From positions 22,390 through 86,389 of the IMG/VR virus record IMGVR_UViG_3300031992_000063: a stretch of 64,000 nucleotides of DNA; one strand, given 5' to 3'. The stretch comes from a virus. Lineage: Duplodnaviria; Heunggongvirae; Uroviricota; Caudoviricetes. Below the pieces are notes generated by a model that searched no databases, was not told the DNA's origin, and saw only the letters and a list, made by a program, of their open reading frames with translations. This document shows, one piece after another, positions 1 to 63,021 of this stretch; the stretch's first letter is position 1; each line of letters begins with the position of its first letter. The position numbers and the translations under genes are program-made.

Positions 1-3000
1 ACCAATTATACAACTGCTGCCACCACCGCTACTTAGAGTGGATAGTTAATTGTAACAAGTGGTGATAGTTCTAATAATGTAGCTATTGAATTATATAGAA
101 ATAGCAGTGCCTCATGGCAAATTTATAATTCTAGTGGAGAATTATAGTTTAATAATAATTATACTACAGCAGCTTAGACAACTTATTCTCGTAATGCGCT
201 TAAATTAAGTTATAATACTGGTAATGCAACATTTGCAGGGACAGTAACTGCTACTGGAGGTTTCAGCGGCAGTCTCACTGGTAATGCTACTACCGCTGGT
301 TCAGCAGGAAAATTAACTTATCAATCTAAAATTAATACTTTAGAAGCATTAGATGCTTTCCATGAAGCTTAGACTTTTAAAGTCGCTACTCTTGCTTATT
401 TAGAAGGACATTCAGGTACACTTACTAAAAATGATGGTATAATTATTTCAGTTCCTTGGAGTGAATCATACGGCCATTAGTTTTATGTTGATGATAATAG
501 TTATTAGTTACATCATAGATTTTTACGGCCAGTAACAGTTAATGATGTTTCTACTCCTACTTGGGCCGATTGGGTTTAGATTATTGATAGCTCTAATTAT
601 ACAAGTTATACTGTAAAAAAAGATGGTACGGGAGCATCAGGAACTTGGGGAATTTCAATTAGCGGTAAAGCGACTACCGCTGGTACTGCAGATAAAATCA
701 GTAATTTGACTACTGCAGATTAGGCTTCTTCTGCCGCAACTTGGCGTAGAGTATGGATTTCTTATAATGATAATGTATATGGACGTCCAGCTTACACTGA
801 TAATTTAGTTTATCAAACTTCAACTAATACATTAAAAACGCCACATTTGCTAATTGAGCATGTCTCTGGCGGTTAGGCTGAAATGCATATAACATATAGC
901 ACTACAATAGATTATTGGTGGGGTGTGGGCACCGGAAATGAAAATCATGGGCTATATGATGTAAAAGCAAACAAGTGGATACTTTCTGCAGGAAGTGCTA
1001 ATACTTGGAGTTTTGTAGGAAATGCTGATACAGCAACCACTGCAACAAATCTTTCAGCAAAGCCTTCACTTGCGGCAAGCGAGAATAATATTACAGTGAC
1101 CGCTGGCGGAAAAACTAGTGATGCTTTTACTGTACCATATGCATCTAAAGCTGATACAATTAATTTAATCACTAATGAATAGTTTACTACAGATGCAGCT
1201 GGATGGTATACTGTGGCTTCATATAACTCTGCCAGTAATACAACCAGAGGAGATTTATGGTTTGCAATTTCTCATGGAGGCGGCGATATGTCTCCTTTAA
1301 GCTGCTGGATTCATTGTATTTTAACCTGGTCTACTGGTTCAATGGTTGATGCGCAATTCTTTGGTTCTAATAATTATGTTAAAGGCGTACGAATGACTAA
1401 AGATAGCGAAAAGACTTATATAGAAGTTAAATTCGGATCTTAGATAAAAAGTTCAAGTGCATTAATTGTACCAAGAAATATATTTACATCATTTAGTAAT
1501 AATTCTTATACATGGCATACTGGGGCACTTACTGCTTCCGCGTCAAATCGTACTATTGGTACAGAATATTTACATAATGGAAGTAGTATTAGTGTTTAGA
1601 ATACAATTGCCGCAAGCACGTTTATGGGACCTTTATATGGTAATGCGTCATCAGCTAGTAATATTAGCGAAAAAACTCCAATACTTGCTGCTTCTATTGA
1701 AAGTAATGAAATAAAAATTATAGATTTAGGTAACAGCGCTCCAGTTGCAGGGGCAGCGTAGCGGCATGCCATTGATTTTAGATGGTATAATTCTCACTGG
1801 GCAATAGGTAATTTACGCAGTGGTAATACTCAAAGTGCTGGATTTGGATTTAGTTATAGTAGCGATAGTGGAACAACTTATTCTAATTTAGTTACTATTT
1901 CTACCTCAGGGGAAATTACAGCGACCGGAGGATTTAGTGGTGATTTAACCGGTAATGTTAGTGGTTCTTCTGGAAGTTGTACTGGAAACGCAGCAACCGC
2001 GACAGGTATTTCAAAAGCAGGGGGCTCTACTGCTAACTTCTGGCGGGGTGACAATACTTGGTCTGATACATTAGTTGGCCCATTATATATTAACAGTACA
2101 ACAGATGCAGGTGGCACTGGTGATACGGGAGCATTAATAATTGGTAGCAAAACGGCAGAAAATATTGCCATTGATACTAATGAAGTTATGGCCCGCAACA
2201 ATAAATCTACTGCAACATTGTACCTTAATAACGATGGCGGACTAGTATCTATTGGTAGCGGTGGTTTATCGACAAGTGGAAAAATTACTAGTACATTAGA
2301 AGGTACTGCTGCTTAGTTTGGCAAGAATTCTGTATTAACAGTGACTGATAATGCTACTATTGCAAATAGAGCAGTTGATATTAAAGGAAAATTAAATTTA
2401 GATAGAGTTAGTAGTGCATCTTTTGGGCGTATTAGTTATTATTCTCCTTCCTATACAACTTGGTTTGATTATATGTCAGAGTCGGGGAATGGTAATGCGC
2501 CAACTGGCGGTAAACCAAGTACTTTAGGTAATGTAACTACTTGGGCTATTAGACATTTAATTGAACAAAATTCTGGGTACGGTTGGATTTGGGAATCATG
2601 TGCTAACGGTGCAGCTTCGGCAAATACAGTAACGCCAACGCCACGTATGGCATTAAGTTCAAATAATGGCCAACTAAGAATTGCGCCAAGTGCCTCATCT
2701 ACAACGAATGAAAGTGGCGGGTTAATTATTGATAGCTCAGTAAATGGTAGCTCTGGTAATGTAGCTCTAGAATTATGGCGTGGAAGTAATGCTTCATGGC
2801 AAATTGCTAATGAAGGCGGCAATTTATATATCCGTAATAACTGGACTACGGCCAAATAGACTTCATATACGCAAACTTCAGTTACAATTAATTATAATAC
2901 TGGTAATACAACATTCGCAGGAACAGTAACTGCAACTAAAGGCTTTAGTGGCCCATTAACTGGTAATGTTACTGGAAACGTTAGCGGCTCTTCTGGTTCA

Positions 3001-3675
3001 TGTACTGGTAACGCAGCAACTGCGACTACAGCTACTTATATTAAATGTACTGATACTCGCAATACTGAACTTAATCCTACGGATCTGAATGCAGCTACAG
3101 GCGTGCGTTTTGATTTTAAAGCAAAAGGTACTATTAGCTTAACCGCTACTGATCCTTACGCAGGAGTAATGTCATTTCGCCCTTACGCCAGTAATAGCGA
3201 CTGGTCAGGTGGCAATGCTCATCAATTAGCGTTTAATAGTGAAGGACTACATTGGCGTAATGGCGGCGCATCTTGGGGAAATTGGAATTAGATATTAGAT
3301 AGTAGTAATACATATGCAGCTGACGCCAATGGCTCTACTATTTCTCTTTCTTGGGGTGGCACAGCAACTTTAGCTACTATTAAAGGCGCTACTGTAAAAA
3401 TAACAATGCCAAATAATCCTAATACTGATTCTTCTGTTAAACAATCTTCCTCCACCTTACAAAACAAATGGCGCAAAGTAATACTTGGTTATAGTGAATA
3501 TGCTGCTTCTAACACAGCTGTAGGAGATGCCGTAACCAATGTTACATATATGGCATAGGATGTTGCGGTTTAGCCGCATACTGGCGCGATGCGCGCTAAT
3601 TCTTACAAAGTAACCGACAACGTAACTCTCCAATGGAACTCCACCGATAGTTCACTAGATTTCGTATTCGCATAA
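1..3675 (+). CDS. Tail fibre / receptor-binding protein, 5'-partial, more than 1200 codons; TAG read as sense
   Basis: Frame 1 is open from nt 1 to TAA at 3673-3675 and is interrupted only by about 19 TAG codons. Gly/Ser/Thr/Asn-rich repetitive tail-fibre composition with duplicated modules such as ...SASWQI.N..G.L.F.NN.TTA.(TAG)T.Y... The ORF track splits it into fragments 883..1182, 1213..1443, 2341..2859 and 3103..3291, all in the same frame. Confidence 0.75.
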
Positions 3676-3690
3676 GGATGGTGAATTCAT

Positions 3691-4026
3691 ATGTACACAT
3701 TACAGCTTGCTGATGGTTCAGCAATAGAAAATTTAAGGCGCTTAAATCCAAGCACTTTTATATTAGATGATACTGGCGCGAATATCTATGCCCGTCTATC
3801 TGATAGTAATCTTGAATTCGCCACCTTACTAAATGGGGACGAATTGGATGATGTGCTTATTGATTATACATTATAGAATTATACTGTCTAGGGAGGAACA
3901 ATCCGTTTTAGGATTGCTCCTCTCTAGGCTTTGGAAGAGCAAGAAAAACATAAGATAGAGCGAGAAAGATTGAAGAGAAATCATTGGTATATGGCCTTGA
4001 GAGTGGAAAAGGAGATGGGGTTGTGA
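3691..4026 (+). CDS. Small tail-associated protein (about 111 aa) with 3 in-frame TAG
   Basis: ATG 3691 in frame 1 reads through TAG three times to TGA at 4024-4026. Its stop overlaps the next gene's GTG start (GTGA junction). Contains a 17-bp hairpin. Confidence 0.45.
3885..3930 (+). other. 17-bp imperfect hairpin inside the 3691..4026 gene
   Basis: CTAGGGAGGAACAATCC-GTTTTA-GGATTGCTCCTCTCTAG. Confidence 0.4.
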
Positions 4027-6419
4027 GCTTACGTTTATGGGCGCCATTAAATGGCGACTTGCGGCAGATTGGAGCTTCTAATGCAGTATTAACGAATGAT
4101 GGAGCTACTGTTGATAATAACGGGAAAATTGGTAAATGTTATTCATTTGCTAATACTCATATTATAGTTGATAGCACTGATATTCAAGATATTTTATCAT
4201 CAACAACTTAGCCATTTTCAATGGCTTGTTGGATATATTTAAACAGCGATGAAACTGATAGAGTTATTATATTTGGAAATTATAGCGCCAATCCTTTTGT
4301 AAACTGGGAATTAGCTGCAAATTGTACTTAGCGTTTATGCGCGGGAGGTACAAGTAATTATGCTAATCGTACTAATAGTACTGTAGTTCCAAAAACTACT
4401 TGGACACATATTGCGGTAACATACAACGGAGCTACTACTACTTTCTATTAGAATGGTACTTCTGTTGGTAGTGTTAATGGCGTAAATACATTAACAACCA
4501 AAACAGCAAGTTCTAGATTTTATTTAGGCAGCGACGTTCGCAATGATGCTACGCGGTTAAAGGGAAAAATGAATGATTTTAGATTTTACGATCATTGCCT
4601 TTCTGCCGCTGAAGTTAAGGAAATTAGTTAGGGGCTGGTATTGCATTATAAGTTGGATGGAGGGGTGTTTGGAAATCCAAATCTATTAACCAATACAGAA
4701 AGATTAGATGCTAATGTTACCAAACCTTCAGGAGTGACAATTACTTCAAATGGATACAATAATTTTACTACCGCTACATATAATAATACATCTGGTACTT
4801 CATATCATGAATTATTAAGTTGGAGTGGGAAAGTAACGGTTTCAGCAAATGAAGTATATACTGCTTCATTTTATGCTAAATCTCCAACATCTGCTACATT
4901 AACTACCTATTTTTATAACAATACTTCTGGAGTAGTTTAGAATCAACTAGCAAAATCTTCTACCGGAGTAACTAGTAATGGTAGCGATGGAGTAATTTCT
5001 ATGGCATTAACTCCAAATTGGCAACGATATTGGATTACTTGGACGTTTAATTCTGTAGCAACATCTGCTACGAAAACTTTACTTTTTCGTCTTTTAAAGG
5101 GCTAGGGTGAAGTCTCAGTATGTGGTATTAAACTTGAAAAGGGTAATGCCGCGACTCCTTGGTGTCCCGCAGATAGCGAGCTATCAATTGATAGGACAAT
5201 TGTTGAAGATAGTAGTGGCTATAATCACAATGCCATATCCAATGGCTCCGCTGTAGTAACTCTAGATTCTGATACTCCTAAATATTCAGCTTCTACAAAA
5301 TTTATATCTGGTTCTAGAATAGCGATGCCCGTTGCTTCATCTACATGTCTGCCCACAGACGCTATTACGGTCAGTATATGGTATAAATCATCCGGTGGTA
5401 CTGCTCGATTTTTATCATGCACTGAAGGCGGCGGTTGGAACTTTGAAGTCAATTCTTCTAAAGCTTCTTTTCCCTTTTATATAAAAGGAAAAGGATATGG
5501 TCGTGTTATTGCTACTTAGAACTTCTATTCAGATAACATATGGCATATGATAACAGCATCATATAATGGAGTGAGTACTGCTAAAATTTATTTAGATGGT
5601 TAGTTAAATAATACGGCTACTATTACTAGCGGATGGGAAAATATACCGATTTCATATGCTACCTCTACTCCATTAACTCTTGGGGCAGAAGCTTAGACAA
5701 TCGCATCTCCAATTGCGGGAACTTATGTAGGCAATTTGAGTGATTTAAGAATATATTGTACTGCATTAAGCGATGATGCGGTACTTGAACTATATCACAC
5801 TGGCGCAAAAGTAGACAATAAAGCCAATATTCACACATATGAGATTAATGAAAATGGCGCGAATAAATTAACCAAAACTGGCATCTTATATGATAATATG
5901 ATAGAATCTATTAAAGTTCTGCCAGACGGAAGTTATTGGCAACTTCTCTTATTTCATTACGTAGATAACGGCAATAACCTTTTCACTTCTTCCAATGCCA
6001 CCAATTGTAACGACTTCGGTTTATATAGCCGCCTAAAAGATATAAATAATTTTACCTATAATGGAAAATATGAGTTCTATGTAATCCAAGATGATATAGA
6101 ATACCGATGGACACAAACAAACCAGCCAACCGCTTCTTCAGTTTCAGGATTAACTACTGTTAGTGGCTATGCCAACCCAGTTAATGGTCTAGCTAAAGCA
6201 AGCCAATCATATACATATATTGGCTATGGTACTTGGTGGGGTGCTTGCGGTGCGTGGACTAAATATTCAACTGGCGGAAAAACTGGTATTCCAGGTTTTG
6301 GCACTCATGATGTCAATGGTATGTGTACGCGTTATTTGGCATTGTATGCACGAATAGAAAAACCAGACGCAAAATTATCAAATCAAACTGCTAATAGTTT
6401 TGAATTTATAGAACTCTAA
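4023..6419 (+). CDS. Tail fibre / receptor-binding protein with two LamG (concanavalin A-like lectin) domains; TAG read as sense
   Basis: Frame 3 is open from GTG 4023 (RBS AAAGGAG 9 nt upstream) to TAA at 6417-6419, with about 9 in-frame TAG. LamG signatures are WTHIAVTYNGATTTFY(TAG)NG...RFYLGSD...FRFYDHCLSAAEV and a second copy ...ITVSIWYKSSGG...KIYLDG... The ORF track fragments 3984, 4641, 5325 and 5736 are all in frame 3. Confidence 0.75.
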
Positions 6420-6543: not shown

Positions 6544-6702
6544 ATGACTTATAGCGTAGTTAAAATCAACCGTTATTCAAGGAAGTTTGAGAGTAACGGA
6601 TACGACATATACAACGGACTTATCGGCAACAGAAATGTCTACGTCTTTAATGAAAATAAATACTGGTGGCACTGGAGCAGATTAGACCAACGCAGGAATT
6701 AA
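6544..6702 (+). CDS. Small ORF (52 aa) downstream of a strong RBS; frame 1
   Basis: AAGGGGGG followed by ATG 6544. It overlaps the open 5' end of the frame-2 tail-fibre gene. This could be a real leader gene or an alternative-frame artefact. Confidence 0.25.
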   Translation: MTYSVVKINRYSRKFESNGYDIYNGLIGNRNVYVFNENKYWWHWSRLDQRRN

Positions 6703-9004
6703 TTTTTATAATGGTACAACATTAACTGGACATATGGGTAGTAGTAATACAGTTGTAGGAATTTACGGAGCTGACTCAATAGTTTTACGTCCAGGTGGAG
6801 CATCGGGAAATTCAACCAAAGGATTAAAATTATCTGCATCTAGTTTATTACCATAGCCCGCTAATACAATTGATCTCGGTGGTACTAGCAATTATTGGAA
6901 AACCGCATATTTAAGTGATATATATTTGTCAAGCGCTACCGCCTCATAGGCGATTGTTACGGATGCGGATAAGAAATTAGTAAGTAAACAATATACTCAA
7001 GACAACGTCGCATCCACTCTTGTATCTAGAGACGCAAGTGGTGATTTTAGTGCTCACACTATTACAGCGGCATTAAATGGTAATGCCTCAACTGCAACTA
7101 AACTTGCTGCCGCATGCACTATTTGGGGACATTCTTTTGATGGTAGTGGAGATATAGATGGTAATCCTATATTAAAAAATAGTGGTTCACGCTATCATTA
7201 TATTTATATTAAATAGCATAATACAGATAATACTGTCGGGGCTATAATGTACGATACTGGTAATGCTACCAATGTTACAGCCGGCCATTGGTATTTTTAT
7301 TCATATAGTCCAAAAGCAACAGCCGATAGTGGAACAAGTGGTCATTTTGAACGTTATCATTTACCAGCAGTAGATATAGGACGAACCAGCGATAAAACTT
7401 ATCAAATATTAACTGATAAATCTGTAGTTACAGTAGCATAGGGCGGTACTGGTATAACTACAGCTACATATAAAAATGCTATTATTGCGGGTAATGCCAG
7501 TACTGTGACAAATGCTTTTTAGGCTATTCGCACTAATAATGGAGCTTTTTATGCTACTGCGTAGGATGGAGCACCAAGTTTTGGCACATTACCAGTCGCA
7601 TAGGGCGGCACTGGCGCAACAAGTGCGGGTGCTGCTTATTCCAATATTAAGAATGGTAATTTTTTGTCTTGTAGTACCGCAATAGATGATGCCGCAAAAG
7701 TAGCTAGTTATACTGGTTTTGCACTAAAAACTGGAATAACTATAAGTATTAAATTTACACTATAGAATACCGCTGCAAATCCTACTTTAAATGTTAATGG
7801 TACCGGGGCAAAAGCAATTTATTGTAATGGAACAAGAGTAACCACTAAAGGTTTAGCACAAAATTACATTTATAGATTAATGTATGATGGAACTGATTGG
7901 CAAATTATAAATCCATAGAATAATTTAATTGGAACATGTGATACTGCAGTAGATACCACTGCTAAAACTTTAGATATTCCAGGATTTATACCATATACCG
8001 GAGCAACAGTATGGATTCAATTTACTAATAATAATAGTACTGCCACTCCAACTTTAAATATTAATGGTTATGGAGCGAAAAATATTTATAATGCTGGTGG
8101 ATAGACACGTACTCAATGGTATGTTTTTAATAAGAATCAATATCAAATTTTCATGTATGATGGTACTAAATTTAATATGACTGGTAATACTTTAAGACGT
8201 GAAATCTCTTTAGGAACTACTAGCTCACATGGATATGAAACAATCTTTTTAGGAAATAATATAGTTTCTACATCTCAAAATGGTATGACAGGAGTATTAG
8301 GATTATATAATGCCAAAACAAATGTTTTAAGAATTACAGCTGAAAAAAATAATTCTACTACTAATCGTTATTGGTATTTGCCTGATTTAAATTCTAATCG
8401 TTATTTTGTTACGCGTAATGCAGACGGTAGCCTAGGGAGTGAATCATAGCCAGTATATATTAGCGCTCACGCGGCAGTTAGCCTTTGTACTGCCACCCTT
8501 GATCTCGTCTATCCTGTCGGTTCTATCTACATTTCCACGGTTGCTGACAATCCGGGTGGCGGCGCAGATGCTATTTTTCCGAATACAACATGGGTGGCAT
8601 TTGGAAAAGGTAGAATGCTTATTGGATATGATGATGCACAAGGTAGCACCTTTGGTACTGGTGGCGCAGAAGGCGGAAGTACGACAAAATCGCTTGTTGA
8701 CGTTAATCTTCCTAGCCATTAGCATTTAATTAGTAGTGATAAAGTATCTACTAATAGTACTGGAGCACACCAACATAAAGGTTATAATGACTGGGTAGCA
8801 ACCACAAACGGAGGTTCTGGTCGTTTAACTGGCCAACAGAGCGGTTCTTCAAATACTTCAAATCCTATTACTCAATCTGCTGGCGATCATTCTCATACAG
8901 TTTCTGGTGTAACTGATTTTACTCCAGCAGAAGGCTCTGGTGCAGTTCCCTTTGATGTAATGAACCCTTATGTTGTAGTTTATATGTGGAAACGTACCGT
9001 GTAA
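6650..9004 (+). CDS. Tail fibre protein with a C-terminal HxH needle-type domain; TAG read as sense; N-terminus uncertain
   Basis: Frame 2 is open from 6548 to TAA at 9002-9004 with about 13 in-frame TAG. The first ATG is at 6650. Contains ...VA(TAG)GGTGITTA... and ...VA(TAG)GGTGATSAGAA... tail-fibre motifs. The C-terminal ...GAHQHKG...AGDHSHTVSG... HxH motifs resemble T4 gp37 and lambda Stf tips. Confidence 0.7.
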
Positions 9005-15605: not shown

Positions 15606-15694
15606 AGCCCCTTAGTTGAATGGCACAACAGCTGACTCTAAATCAGTAAGTGGGATTGACCCCGCGGGTGAGCGTTCGAGTCGCTCAGGGGCCG
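15606..15694 (+). tRNA. Candidate amber-suppressor tRNA, anticodon CUA (reads UAG); isotype undetermined
   Basis: Cloverleaf: AGCCCCT / TA / D stem GTTG-AATGGCA-CAAC / anticodon stem GCTGA, loop CTCTAAA (U33, CUA, A37), TCAGT / 22-nt variable region with GTGGG-ATTGAC-CCCGC helix / T arm GAGCG-TTCGAGT-CGCTC / AGGGGCC / G73. A1-C72 is unpaired. Confidence 0.6.
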
Positions 15695-15781
15695 CGTGGG
15701 AAGCGGACGGCTAGCTACCGAAACGAGATAAGGATGCCCTATCATCCAGCCAAATTTTATTTCTATAGGGAGGAATATAAA

Positions 15782-38467: not shown

Positions 38468-40426
38468 ATGGACAAAAACTTATATATGTCAAGAAAAGGA
38501 TATACAGGATATTATATACCTTCCCCAAGTGATCCATATGTTTATTTAACTTCTCTAATGAATGATGGAATTAATTTATCTGCTCGTATTGGAAGCTTGT
38601 TTAATGCTCAACTAGGAATTACTAATTCTCCAACCGGAAATGCTTTTAATACAAATATGTTTTAGTCACCATCAAATGCAGAAGAAACAAGTCTTAATTT
38701 TTTAAAAGAAGTTGCAGCATCATAGAGGGCACATGAAATATAGTTTATAGATGCTAGAATTAAAGAATTAAAATCATTAGGGAAAATTGGCTCAGAAGAA
38801 TAGATTATTATTGATGCTTTAGAGGTTATAAAAGATAATCCTAAGAATTTTGATTATAAAACTTTTATTACAGCTTTTAACATGGTCATTACTAATCTTA
38901 ACAAGTATAAATCAAGATTACAAGGATTTAATAAAACTTCTGTTGTTAATACACCTTAGGTAAATTTAGTTTAGTAGCTAGAAACTACTTTAAATGATTT
39001 CTCATCCTATAGAGTAAATTTTACTTTACATCAAGAAGAAATGATTAGACAATTAACATTATTATTTTTATAGCGGCCAGAAGGATAGCAATTTATTGCA
39101 GCGCAAATTGGAAAAAAAGGAGTTAGTAATGTTGCAGCCGCAACCGCTATGATACAACAACAATTAGCTTAGTTTTTATATGATAAAGGCTATTTAAAAT
39201 ATAGTAAAGACGAATATTCATTTGAAAATTTTATAAAAACTATTGACAAATTAAAAACTAAATTTAACGAATTTGAAACAGATACTAATATTAATAGTAT
39301 TTACCAAGACTAGCAATTATTAGATGAAATAATACAAATGTATGGTATCACAGTAACTGATAAAGTAAGAGAATATAAACGTAATGTTTCACAAAAAGCT
39401 AAAAAAGCACTTGATAAAGTTAGAAATCAATTACAAAATGATCCTATTATAAATAAAAATAAATATTTCTAGAATCTATTAAAACATGTACACGTTGCCT
39501 GGAAACCAAATACAAACTTTGATAATAAATTAGCTTTTCATAATGAACTAGTATCTAGCTTAGCATCAGCATTTAATTCGCATAAACATTTAGGTAATCT
39601 AAATTTAGCAACAGATATGCTATTAGGCCATATTGTTATAAATAATGGTATGCCAGATGAACAGGCTAATAATATAGTATAGAATACATTAAATAGCATT
39701 TATGATGATTTATCATCTAATTCTATAGGGCATGATGCAAACAAAATTTCAAAAGAATATTTGGATCAAATGGAATAGCTTAATAATTCATTAGAAGGAT
39801 TATCACACGCATTTGTTTTTCATGAATCTAATAAATCATTTAATACATTGGAGCGAGGAAAATGGCCGCAAGCAAATGGAAAAAATATACTTTTCGGAAG
39901 AAAAAATTTAAATTTATTTAATTATATTAATTCAATTAATAATTTAGGAGCATAGTTAGGAATTAGCACTGATTGGCTAACATTCGCTGCTTATAACTTA
40001 GCAGACAATACTTTAGGCGCAATTAATAAAAATCCTCTTGAATCATACTTTGCGATTTTTGCAGGTATGCTTATGTTTGATGATTTTGCAATTATTGGTC
40101 GAGATATAGCTGAAAATTCTATGTATAATAATGTTACTAACATTCATTTATATAAATTACAGGATACTTATTTTCCAGCTTCTGTTTTTTTAGATGCAAC
40201 TTATCAAGCATTAATGGCTGGCAAAGATGCAATTCAAAGTAATATTTTAAATGGCAATGCTTTTACAGTATCTATTTAGGCTCCTAATGTACCCTATACT
40301 CGTCAGGAAGCACCTCGTCTTAAAGATAGATGGCCAGTTCTACGAGACTTTGCATAGTCACATAATAAAATTAGTATTGAATTTGCTGCAGGCTTTTTAA
40401 CTTTAATGCGTAATATATTACCGTAA
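38468..40426 (+). CDS. Large TAG-rich hypothetical protein (about 652 aa; about 20 in-frame TAG including a TAG-TAG doublet), AT-rich
   Basis: RBS AGGAGT followed by ATG 38468. Frame 2 is open to TAA at 40424-40426 and interrupted only by TAG. The ORF track shows only fragments 38468..38665 and 40067..40279 of this frame. Confidence 0.5.
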
Positions 40427-56208: not shown

Positions 56209-56724
56209 ATGAAAACTGGACTTTGCGGATTATATAGATTTAAAAATAAGCAAGGTGAAATTATTTATATTGGTAAGGCTGATGATATTCATAAACGATT
56301 AAAAGGGCATAAACATCTTGAACCAGAACAATATCAAGAGGTATCAACTATTGAATATGCTATAGTTAATAATAAAGCAGATAGAGATATTATAGAGACT
56401 ATGTTAATTTCACAAATTAATCCCAAATATAATACAACACAAAAGTATACAGAACAAGCAAGTTTAATAATAGATGGAGAGATAATGCTTTTATGGCAAA
56501 AAGTTGATCCCAAAGAATATAATTTTCAAGCAAAGAAAAAAGAACATAGAGGCACAGGAGTACAAGGTCGTCCACGTATAGAAGTACCACCATTATTTTA
56601 CGAGTTATATCCTAAATGGAAAAATGGTGAAATAACAGCCACTGCTATGGCAAAAGAAGTTGGTTTAACTCACTGTACATTTTATCGTCGTGTAAAAGAA
56701 TATGAAGCTACTTTAAATAAGTAA
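56209..56724 (+). CDS. GIY-YIG nuclease with C-terminal HTH (171 aa), AT-rich, no TAG
   Basis: GLYRFKNKQGEIIYIGKADDIHKRLKGH...ETMLISQINPKYNT. C-terminal ...ITATAMAKEVGLTHCTFYRRVKEY. Confidence 0.65.
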   Translation: MKTGLCGLYRFKNKQGEIIYIGKADDIHKRLKGHKHLEPEQYQEVSTIEYAIVNNKADRDIIETMLISQINPKYNTTQKYTEQASLIIDGEIMLLWQKVDPKEYNFQAKKKEHRGTGVQGRPRIEVPPLFYELYPKWKNGEITATAMAKEVGLTHCTFYRRVKEYEATLNK

Positions 56725-56758: not shown

Positions 56759-57928
56759 TTGAGAATAATTAAGATGGATAATAAATATTACGTTTACAAA
56801 TATTATATTAATGACCAATTATTATATGTAGGACGAACTAATAACTTTATAGAACGATTTAAACAGCATTTGCGGGAAAATTCAGAATATAATAAAGTAA
56901 CTAGAATTGATATAGCCACTTTTGATTTAGATGGCGATATGATGTTATATGAAAAATATTATATTACGAAATTTCATCCGCCTTTAAATAAGAAGGATAT
57001 GCAATTTTCTAGTCCATCTTTTAAATTACCTGAACCTGAATGGATAAGTTATACTAGAGAAGAATTTGATAATATTTCCTCTCAATATAAAAAAAATAAC
57101 TATGGAAAACTCGTAGAAAACAAAATTAAATTATCAAAAATTATTCTCCCAGATAATACAGTTAAAATTCCTGGTAATATCCCGTTATCTTGGTTTAAAC
57201 AGTTTGATATGAATACACAAGTATTTAATTATAATGAAAAATATAGTATTTATTTTACAAGTGCCTATGATACTGCTACACCAAAAGAACAGAAAAAGAT
57301 GTATAAATGGGATAAAAATGAGATAATTAATTACTGGTGTTTAATAGCAGAAAATAAATTAGATAAAATTCCTTATATTAAAGATTATCCATATGATGCT
57401 CCAACATTAAATTTAACAATTAAAAAAAATAATTCTGACATAATGTATTGTTCTTTAGATTGGTTCAGAATCACTTTGGATAAAAATCAAGGATTTTATT
57501 ATTTTGGGCCATATTTTAAAAATAAAATTATTAGTGAAGATGGTATATTTAATATTGAAAAAGAAATTCAAGAGTATGAAATAATAGAACTATTTCATAC
57601 ACCAACAGTATCAAAAGTTTTAAAAGATGCATTGGGTAATGATGAGATTGAAGTAAAAAAAATTCTTTCTTGGAATATATTATATGTATCGTATAAAAAC
57701 AATATAATAGATACTGCCATTATTAAAATAAATTTCTTATCTACTGAAGATGATGAAACAATATTTGAAAATAATTTATTAATTATTAATCAAGAAGAGA
57801 TTTCAGATTCCGATCATATGATAGCACAAAATTATGCTCCTTGTGGTGTTTTAAGAAAATATAAAAATACTTTTATTCGTGATAAATATTTTGAAAAACT
57901 ATTAATTGACAATTCTCTAAATTTATGA
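56759..57928 (+). CDS. GIY-YIG domain protein (389 aa), very AT-rich
   Basis: YVYKYYINDQLLYVGRTNNFIERFKQH...EKYYITKFHPPLNKKD. Confidence 0.6.
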   Translation: MRIIKMDNKYYVYKYYINDQLLYVGRTNNFIERFKQHLRENSEYNKVTRIDIATFDLDGDMMLYEKYYITKFHPPLNKKDMQFSSPSFKLPEPEWISYTREEFDNISSQYKKNNYGKLVENKIKLSKIILPDNTVKIPGNIPLSWFKQFDMNTQVFNYNEKYSIYFTSAYDTATPKEQKKMYKWDKNEIINYWCLIAENKLDKIPYIKDYPYDAPTLNLTIKKNNSDIMYCSLDWFRITLDKNQGFYYFGPYFKNKIISEDGIFNIEKEIQEYEIIELFHTPTVSKVLKDALGNDEIEVKKILSWNILYVSYKNNIIDTAIIKINFLSTEDDETIFENNLLIINQEEISDSDHMIAQNYAPCGVLRKYKNTFIRDKYFEKLLIDNSLNL

Positions 57929-57934
57929 TATAAT
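57906..57934 (+). promoter_or_regulatory. Consensus promoter (TTGACA-17-TGaTATAAT)
   Basis: Promoter family member. Followed by the ATAGAAAGTGAGAAAG leader. Confidence 0.55.
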
Positions 57935-57964
57935 AAATATAGAAAGTGAGAAAGAATAATATTT

Positions 57965-58180
57965 ATGGATAAAAAAATCATAAATTATAATGTACTAGTT
58001 CGTAATGGTATGGGATGTATGAATAGACATATTCTCGAACAAAATGCTGAATATACTATTGCATATTGTACTTTACATAATAAAGAAATTAGTCAACATG
58101 GTTATGATTGTATGTCGTGTGAATATAATCCGTATTATAAAAATAAAAATATACTTAAAGGAGGCGACAGAGATGACTGA
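57965..58180 (+). CDS. Cys-rich zinc-finger protein (71 aa)
   Basis: CMNRH...CTLH...CMSCEY. Confidence 0.45.
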   Translation: MDKKIINYNVLVRNGMGCMNRHILEQNAEYTIAYCTLHNKEISQHGYDCMSCEYNPYYKNKNILKGGDRDD

Positions 58181-59339
58181 CAAAGCACAGCAAGCGTTAG
58201 AGAGTATTAAGAAAAATTTTTCAAATGCCTCTTTTACATTAAAAGATTTAAATGAGAAAAGCCAAGAACAATATTTTAGTGCTTCTTTAACTTCTTTAGT
58301 AAAAGAACATTATTTACTAAAACTTAATACTAAACCAGTAAAATATCAATTATCGAATATAAATATTGATGTTAGTGATAAATTTCTAGAAAAAGAAAAA
58401 GAAAAAGAAAAAGAAAAAGAAAAAGAAAAAGAAAAAGAAAAGGAAAAAGAAAAAGAAAAACCTATAAATAAATATCCAATTAATATATAGCTATTACATG
58501 GAGATAGTAGAATAGAATTACAACAAATTGCAAACAATTCAATAGATTGTGTTATAACAGATCCTCCATATTTTATTGATGGTATGGGTGATAACTGGCA
58601 AGTAGATAAATTAAAAGAAAAAGCTAGTAAGGCAAATGTAGTACAGTCAATGCCAGTTGGAATGAAATTTGATCCGAAACAAGGTATTGAATTACAGAAA
58701 TTTATGGAAGTAATTTCAAAAGAAATATATCGTATTTTAAAACCTGGCGGATTCTATATTAGTTTTTCTCAAGCACGATTATATCATAGAATGGCAATGG
58801 CAGTAGAAAATTGCGGATTTGAAATAAGGGATATGCTTATTTGGAAACGAGAAGGACAAGCAAAAGCATTTTCACAAAATCATTTTGTACATAAAATGAA
58901 TATTTCAGAAGAAGAAAAAGAAAAAATAATAACTTCTCTAGGAGATAGAAAAACACCGCAATTAAAGCCTCAAATTGAACCAATGGTACTAGCTCAAAAG
59001 CCAAAAGAAGGTACATTTGTACAAAATTGGTTAAAATATAATATTGGATTAATAGATACTACTCAATCTCTTGATGGAATGTTTCCTGGGAATGTAATGG
59101 AAGTACCAAAAGAAAAAAATGCAGTTGCTCATTTTACAGTAAAACCAGTTAAATTAATAGAGCATTTAATTAAAATCTTTTCTCCAGAGGGCGCGATAAT
59201 TTGTGATCCATTTTTAGGAAGTGGAACTACTGGAATAGCTTGCATACATACTAATCGTAATTTTATTGGAATTGAATTAAATGATGAATATTTTTCATTA
59301 GCAAAAGAAAGGATCGAAAAAGAGAATGGAACTAATTGA
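58173..59339 (+). CDS. DNA methyltransferase (DPPY-type N6-A/N4-C) fused through a sense TAG to an N-terminal domain carrying an (EK)13 repeat; about 388 aa
   Basis: RBS GGAGG followed by ATG 58173 ...(EK)n...PINI(TAG)LLHGDSRIELQQIANNSIDCVITDPPYF... (MTase N-terminal signature and motif IV) ...ICDPFLGSGTTGIAC (motif I). ORF 58584..59339 is in the same frame. No independent start codon lies between the TAG and the DPPY motif. Confidence 0.6.
58389..58458 (+). repeat. Hexanucleotide tandem repeat (GAAAAA/AAAGAA)x12 encoding (EK)n
   Basis: gaaaaagaaaaagaaaaa... inside the methyltransferase fusion gene. Confidence 0.7.
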
Positions 59340-60039
59340 TAAATATATTCCATTAACAAAAGAAGAAATAATCAATGATTACATAAAAATTAAAGAATAT
59401 CATCAAAAATATCTTCAATCTTATGGAATTATTATGCCAGCTGAAAATACTAATGCGGCATATCAATTGATATATTTATATCATTTTTTAGGAAAAGCAA
59501 TTCATAAAGATGTTATATCTAATTTTGTATTATCACAAAATCCTAAAGCAAGCGGAGATCAGCAGGTTCGCCATCTTGGTGCACAAAAAGGTTATTGTGT
59601 GATTTATAATGGAGAAGTGTATAATGGAGAAAAGGTAAAAAAAGGATATTATTGTTTATTTACTTTAGAAAAACCAAATCCAGCTTGGATTAACAAGCAA
59701 GAAGCTAGAGCCATTTCAATTACTACAGATGACTTTGAATTACTAAAAAAGAATTACAATAATTGTTGTGCTACTTGTGGAGCAAAAGAAGGGTCTATTC
59801 ATAGATATAGTGGTCAAAAAGTTAAATTACAAAAAGGACATTGTAATCCAAATTTACCTTTAAAAAGTGGTAATATTATTCCACAATGTCAATATTGTAA
59901 TCAAAATATATATAAAGATGATTTTATTTTTACATTAGAAGGACGACCACAAAGTATTAATAATCCGAAATATATTTTGAAAAGCTCAGAAAAAGTACAA
60001 CTGGCAATGTATGAAATTTTAAAAGAAAAATTTCAATAA
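59326..60039 (+). CDS. Putative restriction endonuclease partner of the methyltransferase (237 aa), Cys4 zinc motif
   Basis: Overlaps the methyltransferase stop. CCATCGAK...HC...CQYCN. Confidence 0.4.
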   Translation: MELIDKYIPLTKEEIINDYIKIKEYHQKYLQSYGIIMPAENTNAAYQLIYLYHFLGKAIHKDVISNFVLSQNPKASGDQQVRHLGAQKGYCVIYNGEVYNGEKVKKGYYCLFTLEKPNPAWINKQEARAISITTDDFELLKKNYNNCCATCGAKEGSIHRYSGQKVKLQKGHCNPNLPLKSGNIIPQCQYCNQNIYKDDFIFTLEGRPQSINNPKYILKSSEKVQLAMYEILKEKFQ

Positions 60040-60068
60040 TTGACAATTCTTCAAATTCATGATATAAT
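60040..60068 (+). promoter_or_regulatory. Consensus promoter (TTGACA-17-TGaTATAAT)
   Basis: Promoter family member. Confidence 0.55.
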
Positions 60069-60094
60069 AAAGTATAAAGAAAAGGAGTGAGATA

Positions 60095-62164
60095 ATGATT
60101 AAAAATGTAGACTTTCAACGCACCATTGAGGATGCATTCTTAAAGTATGGCGCATCAATTGCGCAAGAGAGGTCTTTACCTGATGTAAGAGATATGCTGA
60201 AAATTGGTTTGCGGCAGGGTCTATACGCACAATTTACCAACAAACTCACTCATAAAGATAAGTTCCAGAAGGCGCAGAAGAGCGTCGCTGCGGCAATGTC
60301 GCAATCATATGTTCACGGCGATGTAGCAATGTACGACGCTCTTATTCGCGCCGCTCGTCCTTGGTCAAGCCGCTACCCATTGGAAGATGTCCAAGGCAGC
60401 TACGGCAATCCCTCATCTCCAGATAGTCATGCTGCCGCCCGTTATGTTGAAATGAAGTCTGGCGAAATCGCTGATTATATGTTTAACGGGCTAAAGAAAA
60501 ATGCTATCACCGAATGGTATGACAACTATGATAGTACAGAACAAATTCCATCTGTATTTCCTTCTATTGGATATTGGAATATTGTTAATGGATGTCAGGG
60601 CATTGCGGTTGCTATGGCAACTTCCGTTCCTCAGTTTAACCTCAAAGAAGTGAATGATGCGTTAATTAAAATTATTAAAAATCCAGACGTATCATTTAAT
60701 GAAATTTATTGTGCCCCAGACTTCGCAACTGGCGGCCTTATCACTAATGCGGATGAAGTTAAGGAAAGCTTAAAGAATGGAAAAGGAAAATCTATTCGTT
60801 TGCGCGCAAAGATGACATATCTCCCAAAGGAACATGCGCTTCAAGCAACTGAGCTTCCATATGGTGTATTTACGAATACAGTAATGGACCAACTTGCTTC
60901 ACTAGTAAATGATAATCCAGAATATGGCATTGATAAAGTTATTGATTATACCAAGCAGGAAGCAGATATTCGTATCTATCTTTCTAAGGGACAAAATCCT
61001 GATAAAATGATTGCGAAACTTTATCATGATACCATGCTAGAAAATCATTATTCTATCAATATGATTTTGCTAGATAAAGGTCGTTTTCCAAAGGTATTTG
61101 GATGGCGCGATGCATGTGATGCTTATATTACACATATCCGTAATTGTAAGCGTAACATGATCCAGTTTGACTTGGATAAAGCACTCGCGCGCGAAAATAT
61201 CGTCAATGGATTGCTTTTAGCAGTGGCAAATATTGATGATATTGTTGCTATTATTCGTGCTTCCGAAAGTCCGAAAGAAGCCGCGGAAGCGCTTATAGCT
61301 AAATATAAGTTTAACAAGCCACAAGTTGAAGCTATTCTCGCTATGAAGCTATCGGCCCTAACAAGAATTGACGGCGTAAAATTAAATGAAGAACTGGAAG
61401 AACTTGTTAAATTTATTGCGGAATGTAGATACATATTAAATGAACCTGCCGCGTTAGATGAAAAATTGATTGAGGCATTGAATAATGTTTCGCAGAAATT
61501 TGGTGATGCTCGTAGAACAAGAGTAGAGAATATTCTTGGAGACGAAGAAGAACCAGAAGAAATTAAAGAAGAAGATGTTATTGTTCTTCAGAATGGTAAT
61601 AATATCAAGATAATTAAAAAAGGTGAAAAGTGCGGAAAGGCACAAGATGCTTTTTATAGTACAAACCTAGGGTCTTTGATATTAATTACTGACGCTGGGA
61701 AAATGTATAGTGAAACAATTCATAAAATTAAATATAATCAAGTAGTAAAACTTACAGATATATTCCCAATTGGCGCCGAAAAGCCTCTTCTTCTAATTGA
61801 TAGTCGTACATTTAATGCCTTCCAATCTATAACTTGTGTAACGAAAAATGGGTTTATTAAAAAGAGTCATACCTCTGAGTATCTTACTCGCGCAAAGAAG
61901 GGCATCGGAGTTATTAAACTAGATGATGACGCGCTAGTATCTGTTATCCTTAGTAGCGATGATGATGATAAAGTAGTTGTTGTAAGTAATACCGATTATT
62001 ATAATTGCTATTCATTGTCAGAAATTGGATACACTGGGCGTATGACAAAAGGCGTAAAAGCAATTAAACTAGATAAAGATGGTTATGTAAAACAGGCTTT
62101 CTGGACTGGTGATAATAAATATAAAATTACTGGAAGAGCAGTAAAAGGAGTAAAAAATGGATAA
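60095..62164 (+). CDS. Type II DNA topoisomerase, DNA breakage-reunion subunit (GyrA/ParC-like; T4 gp52-like), 689 aa
   Basis: ...YVHGDVAMYDALIRAARPWSSRYPL... matches the GyrA HPHGDxAxYxxxVRMAQ region. Confidence 0.75.
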   Translation: MIKNVDFQRTIEDAFLKYGASIAQERSLPDVRDMLKIGLRQGLYAQFTNKLTHKDKFQKAQKSVAAAMSQSYVHGDVAMYDALIRAARPWSSRYPLEDVQGSYGNPSSPDSHAAARYVEMKSGEIADYMFNGLKKNAITEWYDNYDSTEQIPSVFPSIGYWNIVNGCQGIAVAMATSVPQFNLKEVNDALIKIIKNPDVSFNEIYCAPDFATGGLITNADEVKESLKNGKGKSIRLRAKMTYLPKEHALQATELPYGVFTNTVMDQLASLVNDNPEYGIDKVIDYTKQEADIRIYLSKGQNPDKMIAKLYHDTMLENHYSINMILLDKGRFPKVFGWRDACDAYITHIRNCKRNMIQFDLDKALARENIVNGLLLAVANIDDIVAIIRASESPKEAAEALIAKYKFNKPQVEAILAMKLSALTRIDGVKLNEELEELVKFIAECRYILNEPAALDEKLIEALNNVSQKFGDARRTRVENILGDEEEPEEIKEEDVIVLQNGNNIKIIKKGEKCGKAQDAFYSTNLGSLILITDAGKMYSETIHKIKYNQVVKLTDIFPIGAEKPLLLIDSRTFNAFQSITCVTKNGFIKKSHTSEYLTRAKKGIGVIKLDDDALVSVILSSDDDDKVVVVSNTDYYNCYSLSEIGYTGRMTKGVKAIKLDKDGYVKQAFWTGDNKYKITGRAVKGVKNG

Positions 62165-62980: not shown

Positions 62981-63021
62981 TTTTAAATTAAAATAAAGAA
63001 AAGAAAAAGGAGTAAAGTAAA

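What the first reader, a model, noticed from the sequence alone, without database searches (positions are those of the whole stretch)
58173..59339. DNA methyltransferase joined by a sense TAG to an N-terminal domain with an (EK)13 hexanucleotide repeat
ORF 58584..59339 is a DPPY-motif DNA methyltransferase whose conserved N-terminal signature (LLHGDS...SIDCVITDPPY) begins immediately after a TAG. There is no ATG, GTG or TTG between that TAG and the DPPY motif, and the frame runs upstream to ATG 58173 behind a GGAGG RBS. The upstream part encodes a 105-aa domain ending in (EK)13, specified by a perfect (GAAAAA)12-type repeat at 58389-58458. In a standard-code reading the methyltransferase would lack its N-terminus and a start codon. 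With TAG as sense it becomes a 388-aa fusion. The in-frame hexanucleotide repeat could vary in length by slippage without frameshifting. The putative endonuclease partner follows at 59326..60039.
Basis: seen in the sequence. Interest (0 to 1): 0.6.

Follow-up and report, generated by a model that had tools for sequence, protein, structure and literature searches.

The report
Amber codon read as glutamine in phage methyltransferase
The in-frame TAG is an ordinary glutamine codon in a phage that has reassigned TAG across its genome, so the gene encodes one 388-residue protein, a small DNA-binding-type domain joined to a DNA methyltransferase; this is a known kind of recoding, not a special join.

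Summary
ATG 58173 follows GGAGG, an in-frame hexanucleotide repeat lies at 58388-58460, TAG is at 58488-58490, and the methyltransferase N-terminus (LLHGDS...DPPY) follows with no ATG/GTG/TTG before DPPY. Two details need correcting: the repeat encodes (EK)12, not 13, and it has one A>G change.

The TAG is not special to this gene. The window comes from a large phage (contigs up to ~184 kb) that uses TAG as a sense codon. At least 89 in-frame TAGs lie in 15 of 44 curated genes, concentrated in tail-fibre-like genes, and a tRNA with anticodon CUA lies at 15606-15695.

Codon comparison with relatives shows TAG = Gln. The closest relative has CAA at the junction and carries a TAG where the window has CAA. 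In orthologues at least 75% identical, 12 of 14 TAG replacements are CAA or CAG.

The fusion is conserved. Relatives 78-95% identical in the methyltransferase part carry the same ~65-residue winged-helix-type N-terminal domain. Two of them have no TAG in the gene.

The EK repeat is unique to this strain and identical in two other assemblies. The overlapping downstream gene looks like a winged-helix plus HNH-type nuclease.

Verdict: a new member of a known kind (code-15-type phage), moderate-low interest. The suppressor tRNA's long variable arm is the most unusual side observation.

The parts
57906..57934 (+). Perfect sigma-70-type promoter-like site (TTGACA-17-TATAAT with TG), upstream of the three-gene cassette
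   Evidence: Matches 12/12. A near-identical 29-mer recurs at 60040, with 0 such pairs expected by chance. It belongs to a family of 24 sites on the + strand. Function is inferred.
57965..58180 (+). 71-aa Cys-rich ORF whose TGA overlaps the methyltransferase ATG (ATGACTGA)
   Evidence: ORF list and sequence. No Pfam or PHROG match. Absent at this position in L008 and L010.
58160..58164 (+). GGAGG ribosome-binding site, 8 nt before ATG 58173
   Evidence: Sequence.
58173..59339 (+). Single 388-codon gene: winged-helix domain, (EK)12 linker and beta-class DNA methyltransferase, with TAG 58488 read as Gln
   Evidence: A gene caller called it as one 388-aa gene in the identical ENA contig L042.
58173..58358 (+). 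N-terminal winged-helix-type domain (residues 1-62)
   Evidence: AlphaFold2 gives H-H-H-beta-beta topology with pLDDT 82-90 over residues 1-60. All top Foldseek hits are winged-helix domains, with TM 0.6-0.67 and E >= 0.017. The domain is conserved in P0001-3, P0006-8 and P0010, and also sits on a different methyltransferase, P0121.
58388..58460 (+). In-frame hexanucleotide repeat (GAAAAA)12 with one A>G, encoding (EK)12 in the interdomain linker
   Evidence: TRF score 139 and translation. Absent from relatives, which have unrelated linkers.
58488..58490 (+). In-frame TAG, decoded as glutamine (codon 106), in the linker two residues before the methyltransferase core
   Evidence: L007 has CAA here and has TAG at codon 31, where the window has CAA. 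Genome-wide TAG to CAA/CAG exchanges.
58491..59336 (+). DNA methyltransferase domain (PF01555 N6_N4_Mtase), with DPPY at 58560-58571 and FLGSGTTG near the C-terminus
   Evidence: Pfam 133.8 bits against a cut-off of 26.7. PHROG_67, E 1e-63. PDB relatives are DpnA, CcrM and M.MboIIA.
59326..60039 (+). 237-aa partner gene overlapping the methyltransferase stop by 14 nt; predicted winged-helix N-terminal part plus an HNH-like Zn-binding C-terminal part
60040..60068 (+). Second copy of the 29-nt promoter-like element, upstream of gyrA
15606..15695 (+). tRNA with anticodon CUA (reads UAG); long variable arm, A1.C72 mismatch, G73. It is the only amber suppressor seen in the window.
   Evidence: ARAGORN. 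Rfam tRNA model, 51.7 bits. A family of such tRNAs occurs in 14 IMG/VR phage contigs, with compensatory changes in the acceptor, D and T stems.

Best explanation
The window belongs to a large phage that decodes TAG as glutamine (the code-15 type of recoding). It uses a phage-encoded tRNA(CUA) and terminates genes with TAA or TGA.

In that code, 58173..59339 is one ordinary gene of 388 codons. Its product has three parts:
- an N-terminal winged-helix-type domain of about 62 residues;
- a low-complexity linker containing (EK)12 and the TAG-encoded Gln106;
- a beta-class (DPPY ... FxGxG) DNA N6-adenine/N4-cytosine methyltransferase.

The TAG is a synonymous variant of CAA/CAG that arose by drift in this lineage. 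It is not a conserved regulatory join.

The gene sits in a three-gene cassette with overlapping stops and starts: a 71-aa ORF, the methyltransferase, and a winged-helix/HNH-like partner. A consensus sigma-70-type promoter precedes the cassette.

Shown: the TAG, the genome-wide recoding, TAG = Gln from codon exchanges, the conserved fusion, and the methyltransferase family.

Inferred: that this tRNA is the decoder, the winged-helix function (DNA targeting or autoregulation), the nuclease activity of the partner, and promoter use.
For: 1. **Genome-wide recoding.** With TAG as sense, long ORFs appear: 1..3675 (19 TAGs), 3954..6419 (9), 6548..9004 (14), 38468..40426 (17). At least 89 in-frame TAGs lie in 15 of 44 curated genes.

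2. **A tRNA(CUA) is encoded at 15606-15695**.

3. **TAG = Gln.**
   - L007 has CAA at the junction codon, and has TAG where the window has CAA.
   - In orthologues at least 75% identical, 12 of 14 TAG replacements are CAA or CAG.
   - No TAT/TAC replacement was seen at any identity level, and only one Ser codon, in a gene 61% identical.
   - A near-identical strain (L038) differs by CAG/TAG at 14152.
   - A TAG in the PhoH-like gene aligns with the conserved Q of PDB 3b85.

4. **The fusion is conserved.** P0001 (95% identical in the methyltransferase part), P0002 and P0003 (87%), and P0006-8 and P0010 (about 78%) are 369-374 aa with the same N-terminal domain. L008, L009 and L010 translate in the standard code with AAT at the junction.

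5. **No standard-code alternative start.** There is no ATG/GTG/TTG between the TAG and DPPY.

6. **The N-terminal part is coding in frame.** Its score is 0.31 against -1.16 and -1.02. Against L007 it shows 14 synonymous and 13 non-synonymous codon differences.

7. **The sequence is identical in other assemblies**.

8. **Published precedent.** TAG-to-Gln recoded phages with suppressor tRNAs and TAG-rich structural genes are described in bioRxiv 10.1101/2021.08.26.457843. Differing TAG patterns between orthologous ORFs of close relatives are described in PMC10607447.
Against: - There is no protein-level evidence for Gln at this codon or for the 388-aa product.
- The only suppressor tRNA in the window is structurally atypical for a Gln acceptor. 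It has a long variable arm, so its charging is uncertain, and about 120 kb of the genome is unseen.
- The junction residue is Asn in the relatives L008, L009 and L010. This site alone therefore does not fix the amino acid.
- Three TAG-AAG (Lys) pairs were also seen.
- The assemblies that confirm the TAG may derive from related samples.
Confidence: 0.88

Rival explanations
1. Programmed two-product switch. Early in infection, or when the host release factor RF1 outcompetes the suppressor tRNA, translation stops at TAG 58488 and yields a free 105-aa winged-helix-(EK)12 protein. Later, suppression yields the full methyltransferase. The TAG at the domain boundary would then time or dose methylation.
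For: - The TAG lies in the interdomain linker, so termination would release an intact folded domain.
- The cassette has a 12/12 sigma-70-type promoter typical of the TAG-free, presumably early genes. It is one of only two TAG-containing genes between 46.8 and 64 kb.
- A temporal role for recoded stops has been proposed in general.
- A 99-aa protein, P0124, that aligns with this domain over its first ~65 residues exists in the databases.
Against: - The position is not conserved. The closest relative has CAA at the junction and its TAG at codon 31, where termination would give a useless 30-residue peptide. L008, L009 and L010 have no TAG in the gene.
- The suppressor tRNA also lies downstream of a sigma-70-type promoter-like site at 15129. 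No obvious temporal separation is encoded.
- P0124 could itself be a product truncated at a TAG by a standard-code gene caller.
Confidence: 0.08
2. Pseudogene or nonsense mutation (or sequencing error). The methyltransferase is inactivated by a premature stop, and the upstream ORF is an unrelated small gene.
For: Under table 11 the ORF list splits the region into a 148-aa ORF (105 aa from ATG 58173) and a 251-aa ORF that lacks DPPY. Some homologues are stand-alone enzymes with their own ATG.
Against: - Sense TAGs occur across the genome and a tRNA(CUA) is encoded.
- The fused architecture is conserved in relatives without any stop.
- TAG and CAA exchange reciprocally with L007.
- The methyltransferase part is 95% identical in protein to P0001, while the region is only 79% identical in DNA to L007.
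- The TAG is identical in three other assemblies.
Confidence: 0.02
3. Separate initiation of the methyltransferase at a non-canonical codon after the TAG. The candidate is ATA 58512, 8 nt after GGAG 58500-58503. The upstream ORF would be an independent gene ending at TAG.
For: GGAG at 58500-58503 has suitable spacing to ATA 58512. Stand-alone homologues start within a few residues of this region.
Against: - ATA is a very poor initiator (established knowledge).
- Such a start would delete the conserved LLHGDS segment, which aligns with IIHGDC of CcrM.
- The GGAG is simply the Gly-Asp codons (GGA GAT) of that conserved motif.
- The closest relatives are continuous fusions.
- TAG does not act as a terminator elsewhere. 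For example, 41962 is CAG in L011.
Confidence: 0.02

Closest known systems
TAG-to-glutamine recoded phages (genetic code 15 type): crAss-like, Lak, Garnet/Amethyst/Topaz groups and the phAss-1 group (bioRxiv 10.1101/2021.08.26.457843; PMC9523058; PMC10607447)
   Same: - Low-GC phage, with in-frame TAGs concentrated in structural genes.
- Replication genes are largely TAG-free.
- A phage-encoded tRNA(CUA) is present.
- TAG aligns with Gln.
- Orthologues in close relatives differ in which Gln positions are TAG.
- The best GenBank phage match for gyrB is phAss-1, itself TAG-recoded.
   Different: - Only distantly related to any described phage: gyrB is 35% identical to phAss-1.
- The suppressor tRNA seen here has a long variable arm, unlike a canonical tRNA-Gln.
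- TAG also occurs in homing-endonuclease, PhoH-like, radical-SAM and methyltransferase genes, not only in virion genes.
Beta-class N6-adenine/N4-cytosine DNA methyltransferases (Pfam PF01555; DpnA, CcrM, M.MboIIA, M.RsrI, M.PvuII)
   Same: Motif IV (DPPY) is N-terminal and motif I (FLGSGTTG) is C-terminal. The Pfam match covers the full profile length, and the sequence is similar to DpnA and CcrM structures.
   Different: It carries an extra N-terminal winged-helix-type domain and an (EK)12 linker. Most homologues, including one 82% identical (P0004), lack this domain. Specificity is unknown.
Methyltransferases with an appended helix-turn-helix regulatory region (e.g. M.SsoII-type autoregulating C5 methyltransferases; from my own knowledge, not tested here)
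   Same: A small DNA-binding-type domain sits at the N-terminus of a methyltransferase, within a methyltransferase/nuclease gene pair. It could bind the cassette's own promoter.
   Different: The enzyme class is different (beta N6/N4, not C5). The domain is a winged helix with no sequence match to any Pfam family. No operator was identified. The regulatory role is conjecture.
Phase-variable methyltransferases with simple-sequence repeats (phasevarions; from my own knowledge)
   Same: A simple-sequence repeat lies inside the coding region of a DNA methyltransferase.
   Different: The unit is 6 nt, so slippage cannot switch the frame ON/OFF. It would only change linker length. No length variants were seen in the two other assemblies that span it, and relatives have no repeat.
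Programmed stop-codon readthrough extensions (e.g. Q-beta A1 protein, retroviral gag-pol; from my own knowledge)
   Same: A stop codon separates an upstream module from a downstream domain in the same frame.
   Different: Here the codon is reassigned across the genome, not leaky at one site. Its position is not conserved between close relatives.

Membership tests
Code-15-type (TAG to Gln) recoded phage | Many in-frame TAGs inside otherwise intact, conserved protein-coding genes | tested here: met
   At least 89 in-frame TAGs in 15 of 44 curated genes. ORFs of 650-1225 codons appear only if TAG is sense.
Code-15-type (TAG to Gln) recoded phage | TAG positions correspond to glutamine in homologues | tested here: met
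   In orthologues at least 75% identical, 12 of 14 TAG replacements are CAA or CAG. TAG and CAA exchange reciprocally in this very gene. A conserved PhoH Q aligns with a TAG.
Code-15-type (TAG to Gln) recoded phage | Phage-encoded amber suppressor tRNA (anticodon CUA) | tested here: met
   tRNA(CUA) at 15606-15695 by ARAGORN and Rfam. Its long variable arm is atypical, so Gln charging is not shown.
Code-15-type (TAG to Gln) recoded phage | TAG not used as a terminator; genes end in TAA or TGA | tested here: inconclusive
   All 44 curated genes end in TAA or TGA, but they were delimited that way. One candidate TAG terminator, at 41962, is CAG in L011 and so is sense.
Code-15-type (TAG to Gln) recoded phage | Peptide evidence for Gln at TAG | not testable with these tools
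   Needs metaproteomics, as in PMC9523058.
Beta-class DNA methyltransferase (PF01555 N6_N4_Mtase) | Profile match above the curated threshold over the whole domain | tested here: met
   133.8 bits against a cut-off of 26.7, covering profile positions 1-221 of 221.
Beta-class DNA methyltransferase (PF01555 N6_N4_Mtase) | Catalytic motif IV (D/S-PP-Y/F) placed before the SAM-binding motif I (FxGxG) | tested here: met
   DPPY at residues 130-133, and DPFLGSGTTG near the C-terminus.
Beta-class DNA methyltransferase (PF01555 N6_N4_Mtase) | Methyl transfer to DNA, and the target sequence | not testable with these tools
   Needs methylome sequencing or an enzyme assay.
Type II restriction-modification pair | Methyltransferase gene adjacent to a nuclease gene, with the pair conserved | tested here: met
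   The partner overlaps the methyltransferase stop in the window, L007, L008 and L010. Partner and methyltransferase homologues share contigs of the same lengths (176438, 160003, 27134, 9805, 10450, 3518, 2201), including methyltransferases without the winged-helix domain.
Type II restriction-modification pair | The partner is a nuclease (HNH / beta-beta-alpha-Me fold with catalytic His and metal ligands) | tested here: inconclusive
   Invariant CxxC...H...N...CxxCN. The leading Foldseek hits are HNH nucleases (Cas9, McrA, Cap5; PacI at rank 24), but all have E >= 0.03. PHROG hits to endonuclease VII and HNH have E 2e-4 and 7e-3. No Pfam or NCBIfam match.
Winged-helix DNA-binding domain (N-terminal 62 residues) | H1-(S1)-H2-H3-S2-wing-S3 topology and structural match to known winged helices | tested here: met
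   The model has H3-15, H23-30, H36-44, E48-51 and E57-60. The top 50 PDB hits are nearly all winged-helix domains, with TM up to 0.67 and probability about 1.0. E-values are weak (>= 0.017), so this is a fold assignment, not proof of homology or of DNA binding.
Phase-variable (contingency) methyltransferase locus | Repeat-length changes switch the reading frame ON/OFF | tested here: not met
   The unit is 6 nt and in frame, so slippage preserves the frame.
Phase-variable (contingency) methyltransferase locus | Repeat-length polymorphism in populations | tested here: inconclusive
   L005 and L042 have the same length as the window. The Logan unitigs break inside the repeat. Raw reads were not available.
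Site-specific programmed readthrough | Stop codon conserved at the same position in relatives | tested here: not met
   The junction codon is CAA in L007 and AAT in L008, L009 and L010.

The most novel reading that the evidence does not exclude
The TAG in this gene, and the ~90 others in the window, may be decoded by a natural type-II-like tRNA. It has a long variable arm and is 89-96 nt long. Its anticodon is CUA and its acceptor end resembles tRNA-Gln: a weak 1:72 pair (U-A, A-U, or A.C in this phage), G2:C71 and mostly G73.

If this tRNA is really charged with glutamine, it would be a class of Gln acceptor with a long variable arm. That class is conserved in many large phages and is not described in the recoding papers I could search.

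If instead it is charged with another amino acid, TAG would be ambiguously decoded in phages that also carry a short Gln-like tRNA(CUA).
Probability: 0.35. Interest if true: 0.6.

Novelty: new member of a known kind. Interest (0 to 1): 0.3.

Why it matters
**For annotation.** Standard-code gene calling breaks this methyltransferase, and dozens of other genes in this phage, into fragments. One public gene call (JGI contig L005) gives a 251-aa product without its catalytic DPPY motif. Reading TAG as Gln restores a conserved two-domain enzyme.

**For biology.**
- It adds a distant lineage of large phages, apparently rumen-associated and about 184 kb, to the known TAG-to-Gln recoded phages.
- It shows sense TAGs drifting among Gln positions even in a replication-module gene.
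- It defines an uncharacterised family of winged-helix-methyltransferase fusions, paired with a winged-helix/HNH-like partner.

The specific 'join by TAG' carries no special mechanism. The unusual suppressor tRNA is the feature most worth follow-up.

Tried and rejected
- **Word-index homologue search with the N-terminal 74 residues** found nothing. The exhaustive HMMER search gave only 4 weak hits, two of them relevant: P0121 and P0124.
- **GenBank phages (blastn, distant mode)** gave no relative of the locus beyond short conserved methyltransferase segments.
- **Pfam, NCBIfam and PHROGs for the N-terminal domain** gave only low-complexity or sub-threshold hits.
- **Shared recognition module.** I tested whether the winged-helix domains of the methyltransferase and its partner are related. 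hhalign gives probability 0.1%, so this is rejected.
- **Exact-sequence look-ups to find more contigs spanning the repeat.** gyrA and the 105-aa ORF are not on record. The 71-aa ORF gave L042-L044.
- **Origin of the long tRNA(CUA) from tRNA-Tyr.** I considered that it derives from a bacterial-type tRNA-Tyr (GUA to CUA), with acceptor-end changes like the classical su+3 glutamine-mischarging mutants (from my own memory). The anticodon arm matches a phage tRNA-Tyr in L020. The D-arm, with a 4-bp stem and small loop, looks class-I-like. This is unresolved.
- **Sequencing error and pseudogene readings** are rejected.
- **The two-product switch** is considered unlikely because the TAG position is not conserved.
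Full report
**1. The observation.**

Reading 57900-60200 and the ORF list confirms the anatomy.
- GGAGG lies at 58160-58164 and ATG at 58173.
- The frame is open to TGA 59337-59339, interrupted only by TAG at 58488-58490.
- The codons after the TAG encode LLHGDSRIELQQIANNSIDCVITDPPY (DPPY at 58560-58571).
- The first ATG/GTG/TTG after the TAG is ATG 58584, beyond DPPY.

Tandem Repeats Finder reports a period-6 array at 58388-58460, with 12.2 copies and 97% matches. It is the only such array in the window. It encodes (EK)12, not (EK)13, and one unit is GAAAAG.

Pfam places N6_N4_Mtase (PF01555) at residues 124-379 of the 388-residue read-through product, with 133.8 bits against a threshold of 26.7.

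The segment upstream of the TAG scores as coding in the same frame: 0.31 against -1.16 and -1.02.

The same TAG and the same repeat length occur in JGI contig L005, ENA contig L042 (6216/6216 identical) and Logan contig L006. An assembly error is therefore unlikely. These samples may be related.

**2. The TAG is one of many.**

The window has 37% G+C, and all its genes are on the + strand. With TAG treated as sense, very long ORFs appear:

| ORF | In-frame TAGs |
|---|---|
| 1..3675 | 19 |
| 3954..6419 | 9 |
| 6548..9004 | 14 |
| 38468..40426 | 17 |

Smaller numbers occur in other genes: a radical-SAM gene, two GIY-YIG homing-endonuclease genes and a PIN-PhoH gene, among others. In a curated list of 44 genes, 15 contain at least 89 in-frame TAGs.

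Other genes have none. These include RNA and DNA ligases, ClpP, a permease, gyrB and gyrA.

TAG-rich genes almost lack CAG. TAG-free genes often prefer CAG.

A tRNA array lies at 15.6-26.4 kb and starts with a tRNA of anticodon CUA at 15606-15695.

**3. Which amino acid.**

Codon-by-codon comparison with related contigs gives the answer.
- In the heavily recoded gene 38468..40426 (95% protein identity to L011), all four TAG/non-TAG differences are CAG.
- Across all orthologues at least 75% identical, 12 of 14 differences are CAA or CAG. The other two are AAG and AAT.
- No TAT/TAC replacement was seen at any identity level. The single Ser codon is in a gene 61% identical.
- A near-identical strain (L038) differs from the window by CAG against TAG at 14152.
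- A TAG of the PhoH-like protein aligns with the conserved Q of PDB 3b85.

This matches published TAG-to-Gln recoding in phages.

**4. The gene itself in relatives.**

The homologue search with the methyltransferase part returned two architectures among close relatives. Identities are over the methyltransferase part.

| Proteins | Identity | Length | Architecture |
|---|---|---|---|
| P0001 | 95% | 372 aa | Same N-terminal domain |
| P0002, P0003 | 87% | 370 and 369 aa | Same N-terminal domain |
| P0006-8, P0010 | ~78% | 374 aa | Same N-terminal domain |
| P0004, P0005, P0009 | 78-82% | 285-288 aa | Own ATG, just before the conserved N-terminal segment |
| IMG/VR locus L001 | 58% | 296 aa | Own ATG, just before the conserved N-terminal segment |

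The DNA is decisive.
- In L007 (P0001) the junction codon is CAA where the window has TAG.
- L007 has a TAG at codon 31, where the window has CAA.
- In L008/L009 (P0003) and L010 (P0002) the junction codon is AAT. Those genes have no TAG and translate in the standard code.

In L008 and L010 the gene lies between gyrB and a 240-254-aa partner, with gyrA further downstream. L007 begins at the gene and shows the same partner and gyrA.

So the fusion is the native architecture in this lineage. The TAG is a drifting synonymous Gln codon and its position is not conserved. The (EK)12 repeat is specific to this strain; relatives have unrelated linkers of similar length.

**5. The domains.**

A small alignment of the N-terminal domain gave an AlphaFold2 model with three helices followed by a beta hairpin. 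pLDDT is 82-90 over residues 1-60 and disordered beyond 64. The best PDB matches are nearly all winged-helix domains: RIOK2 N-terminal domain, Z-alpha, MarR, AspA and TubR. TM is up to 0.67 and E >= 0.017. This is a fold assignment, not proof of DNA binding.

The exhaustive HMMER search found the same domain on a different methyltransferase (P0121, with an NPPF motif). It also found the domain at the start of a 99-aa protein, P0124. In P0027 a helix-rich domain sits at the C-terminus instead; its kinship to the N-terminal domain is my visual impression only. The domain seems to be a mobile accessory module of phage methyltransferases.

The downstream 237-aa gene overlaps the methyltransferase stop by 14 nt. 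It is conserved as a pair with methyltransferase homologues, including those lacking the winged helix.
- Its model is confident, with pLDDT 94.
- The C-terminal half carries invariant CxxC...H...N...CxxCN.
- The leading Foldseek hits are HNH nucleases (Cas9, EcoKMcrA, Cap5; PacI at rank 24), but none is significant.
- PHROG hits to endonuclease VII and HNH are weak.

A nuclease role is plausible but not established.

**6. Expression context.**

A perfect TTGACA-17-TATAAT element with a TG extension lies at 57906. A near-identical 29-mer lies at 60040 before gyrA. Both belong to a family of 24 sites on the + strand that match sigma-70 at 11/12 or better. These sites precede most TAG-free genes, the tRNAs and a few TAG-containing genes.

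The 71-aa ORF (57965..58180), the methyltransferase and the partner overlap stop-to-start. This suggests a translationally coupled cassette.

Relative to L008 and L010, the window has two GIY-YIG genes and the 71-aa ORF inserted between gyrB and the methyltransferase.

**7. Mechanism and rivals.**

Best explanation: ordinary decoding of TAG as Gln, giving one 388-aa winged-helix-linker-methyltransferase protein.

A programmed two-product switch at the domain boundary cannot be excluded but is unlikely. The TAG position differs in the nearest relative and is absent in others. The suppressor tRNA also lies behind a sigma-70-type site.

The pseudogene, sequencing-error and non-canonical internal-start readings are contradicted by the comparative data.

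**8. The suppressor tRNA.**

ARAGORN folds the tRNA(CUA) as a 90-nt tRNA with a 5-bp long variable arm, an A1.C72 mismatch and G73.

The same anticodon arm occurs in 30 IMG/VR contigs. Fourteen carry a comparable 89-96-nt tRNA(CUA). Three of them (L012, L037, L039) also carry a short, Gln-like tRNA(CUA); L038 carries a second, unrelated short tRNA(CUA).

The family shows compensatory changes in the acceptor, D and T stems. The 1:72 pair is mostly weak (U-A, A-U, G.U, A.C). In most members the discriminator is G73, and in about half the 2:71 pair is G:C, as in tRNA-Gln.

I found no mention of a long variable arm in the phage-recoding papers searched. Whether this tRNA is charged with Gln is open. 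About 120 kb of the genome lies outside the window.

**9. Novelty and score.**

The phenomenon is established: TAG-to-Gln recoding, a suppressor tRNA, TAG-rich late genes and variable TAG patterns among relatives. This phage is only distantly related to described ones; gyrB is 35% identical to phAss-1.

The finding is therefore a correct reading of a known kind of recoding in a new lineage. It has a modestly interesting uncharacterised domain fusion and an unusual tRNA as a side lead.

Noticed in passing
window 15606-15695; L012-L039 (IMG/VR): The amber-suppressor tRNA(CUA) has a long variable arm (90 nt), an A1.C72 mismatch and G73. A conserved family of 89-96-nt tRNA(CUA) genes exists in 14 IMG/VR phage contigs (15 to 172 kb). 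Three of these contigs (L012, L037, L039) also carry a short Gln-like tRNA(CUA). This is odd for a codon that behaves as Gln.
   Followed up: partly
window 15162-15224: Rfam cow-rumen-4 RNA (RF02948, 63.8 bits against a gathering score of 48.5). It lies directly after a promoter-like site at 15129 and about 380 nt upstream of the suppressor tRNA.
   Followed up: no
window 19865-20028: A tRNA (Rfam, 51.6 bits) with an insertion of about 91 nt in the anticodon loop, which may be an intron. ARAGORN does not report it, and its anticodon was not determined.
   Followed up: partly
window 22098-22134: A marginal Rfam abiF RNA match (37.9 bits against a gathering score of 37), inside the tRNA region.
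   Followed up: no
window, 24 sites on the + strand (e.g. 13503, 15129, 17806, 24246, 34656, 50039, 54264, 57906, 60040): A conserved promoter family, TTGAC(T/A)TTTT...AAATT.TG.TATAAT, matching sigma-70 at 11/12 or better. It precedes most TAG-free genes and the tRNA clusters. Only one site (6423) lies within the tail-fibre block 1-13 kb, and none precedes gene 38468-40426.
   Followed up: partly
window, gene by gene (e.g. 1-3675 against 63016-63918): Gln codon usage is bimodal. TAG-rich genes use CAA and TAG with almost no CAG (13/0/19 for CAA/CAG/TAG in gene 1-3675). Several TAG-free genes use mostly CAG (0 CAA and 14 CAG in 63016-63918). This is consistent with CAG-to-TAG conversion in one gene class.
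   Followed up: partly
window 56209-56724, 56759-57928, 57965-58180: Two GIY-YIG homing-endonuclease-like genes and a 71-aa Cys-rich ORF lie between gyrB and the methyltransferase. In the relatives L008 and L010 the methyltransferase directly follows gyrB.
   Followed up: partly
window 51571-51661: Tandem 20/41-nt repeats (CGAAAACCGTACCAATCGTC-like, about 4 copies) in an intergenic region. They look iteron-like and could mark an origin or a regulatory site.
   Followed up: no
window 38468-40426: A 652-aa protein with 17 sense TAGs and no PHROG match. It is 95% identical to a protein in IMG/VR contig L011. It is the most heavily recoded gene outside the fibre block, and its function is unknown.
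   Followed up: no
P0121 and P0027: The same small N-terminal domain is fused to an unrelated NPPF-motif methyltransferase (P0121). In P0027 a helix-rich domain sits at the C-terminus of a close homologue instead; its kinship to the N-terminal domain is only a visual impression. P0121 at least suggests a mobile accessory module of phage methyltransferases.
   Followed up: partly
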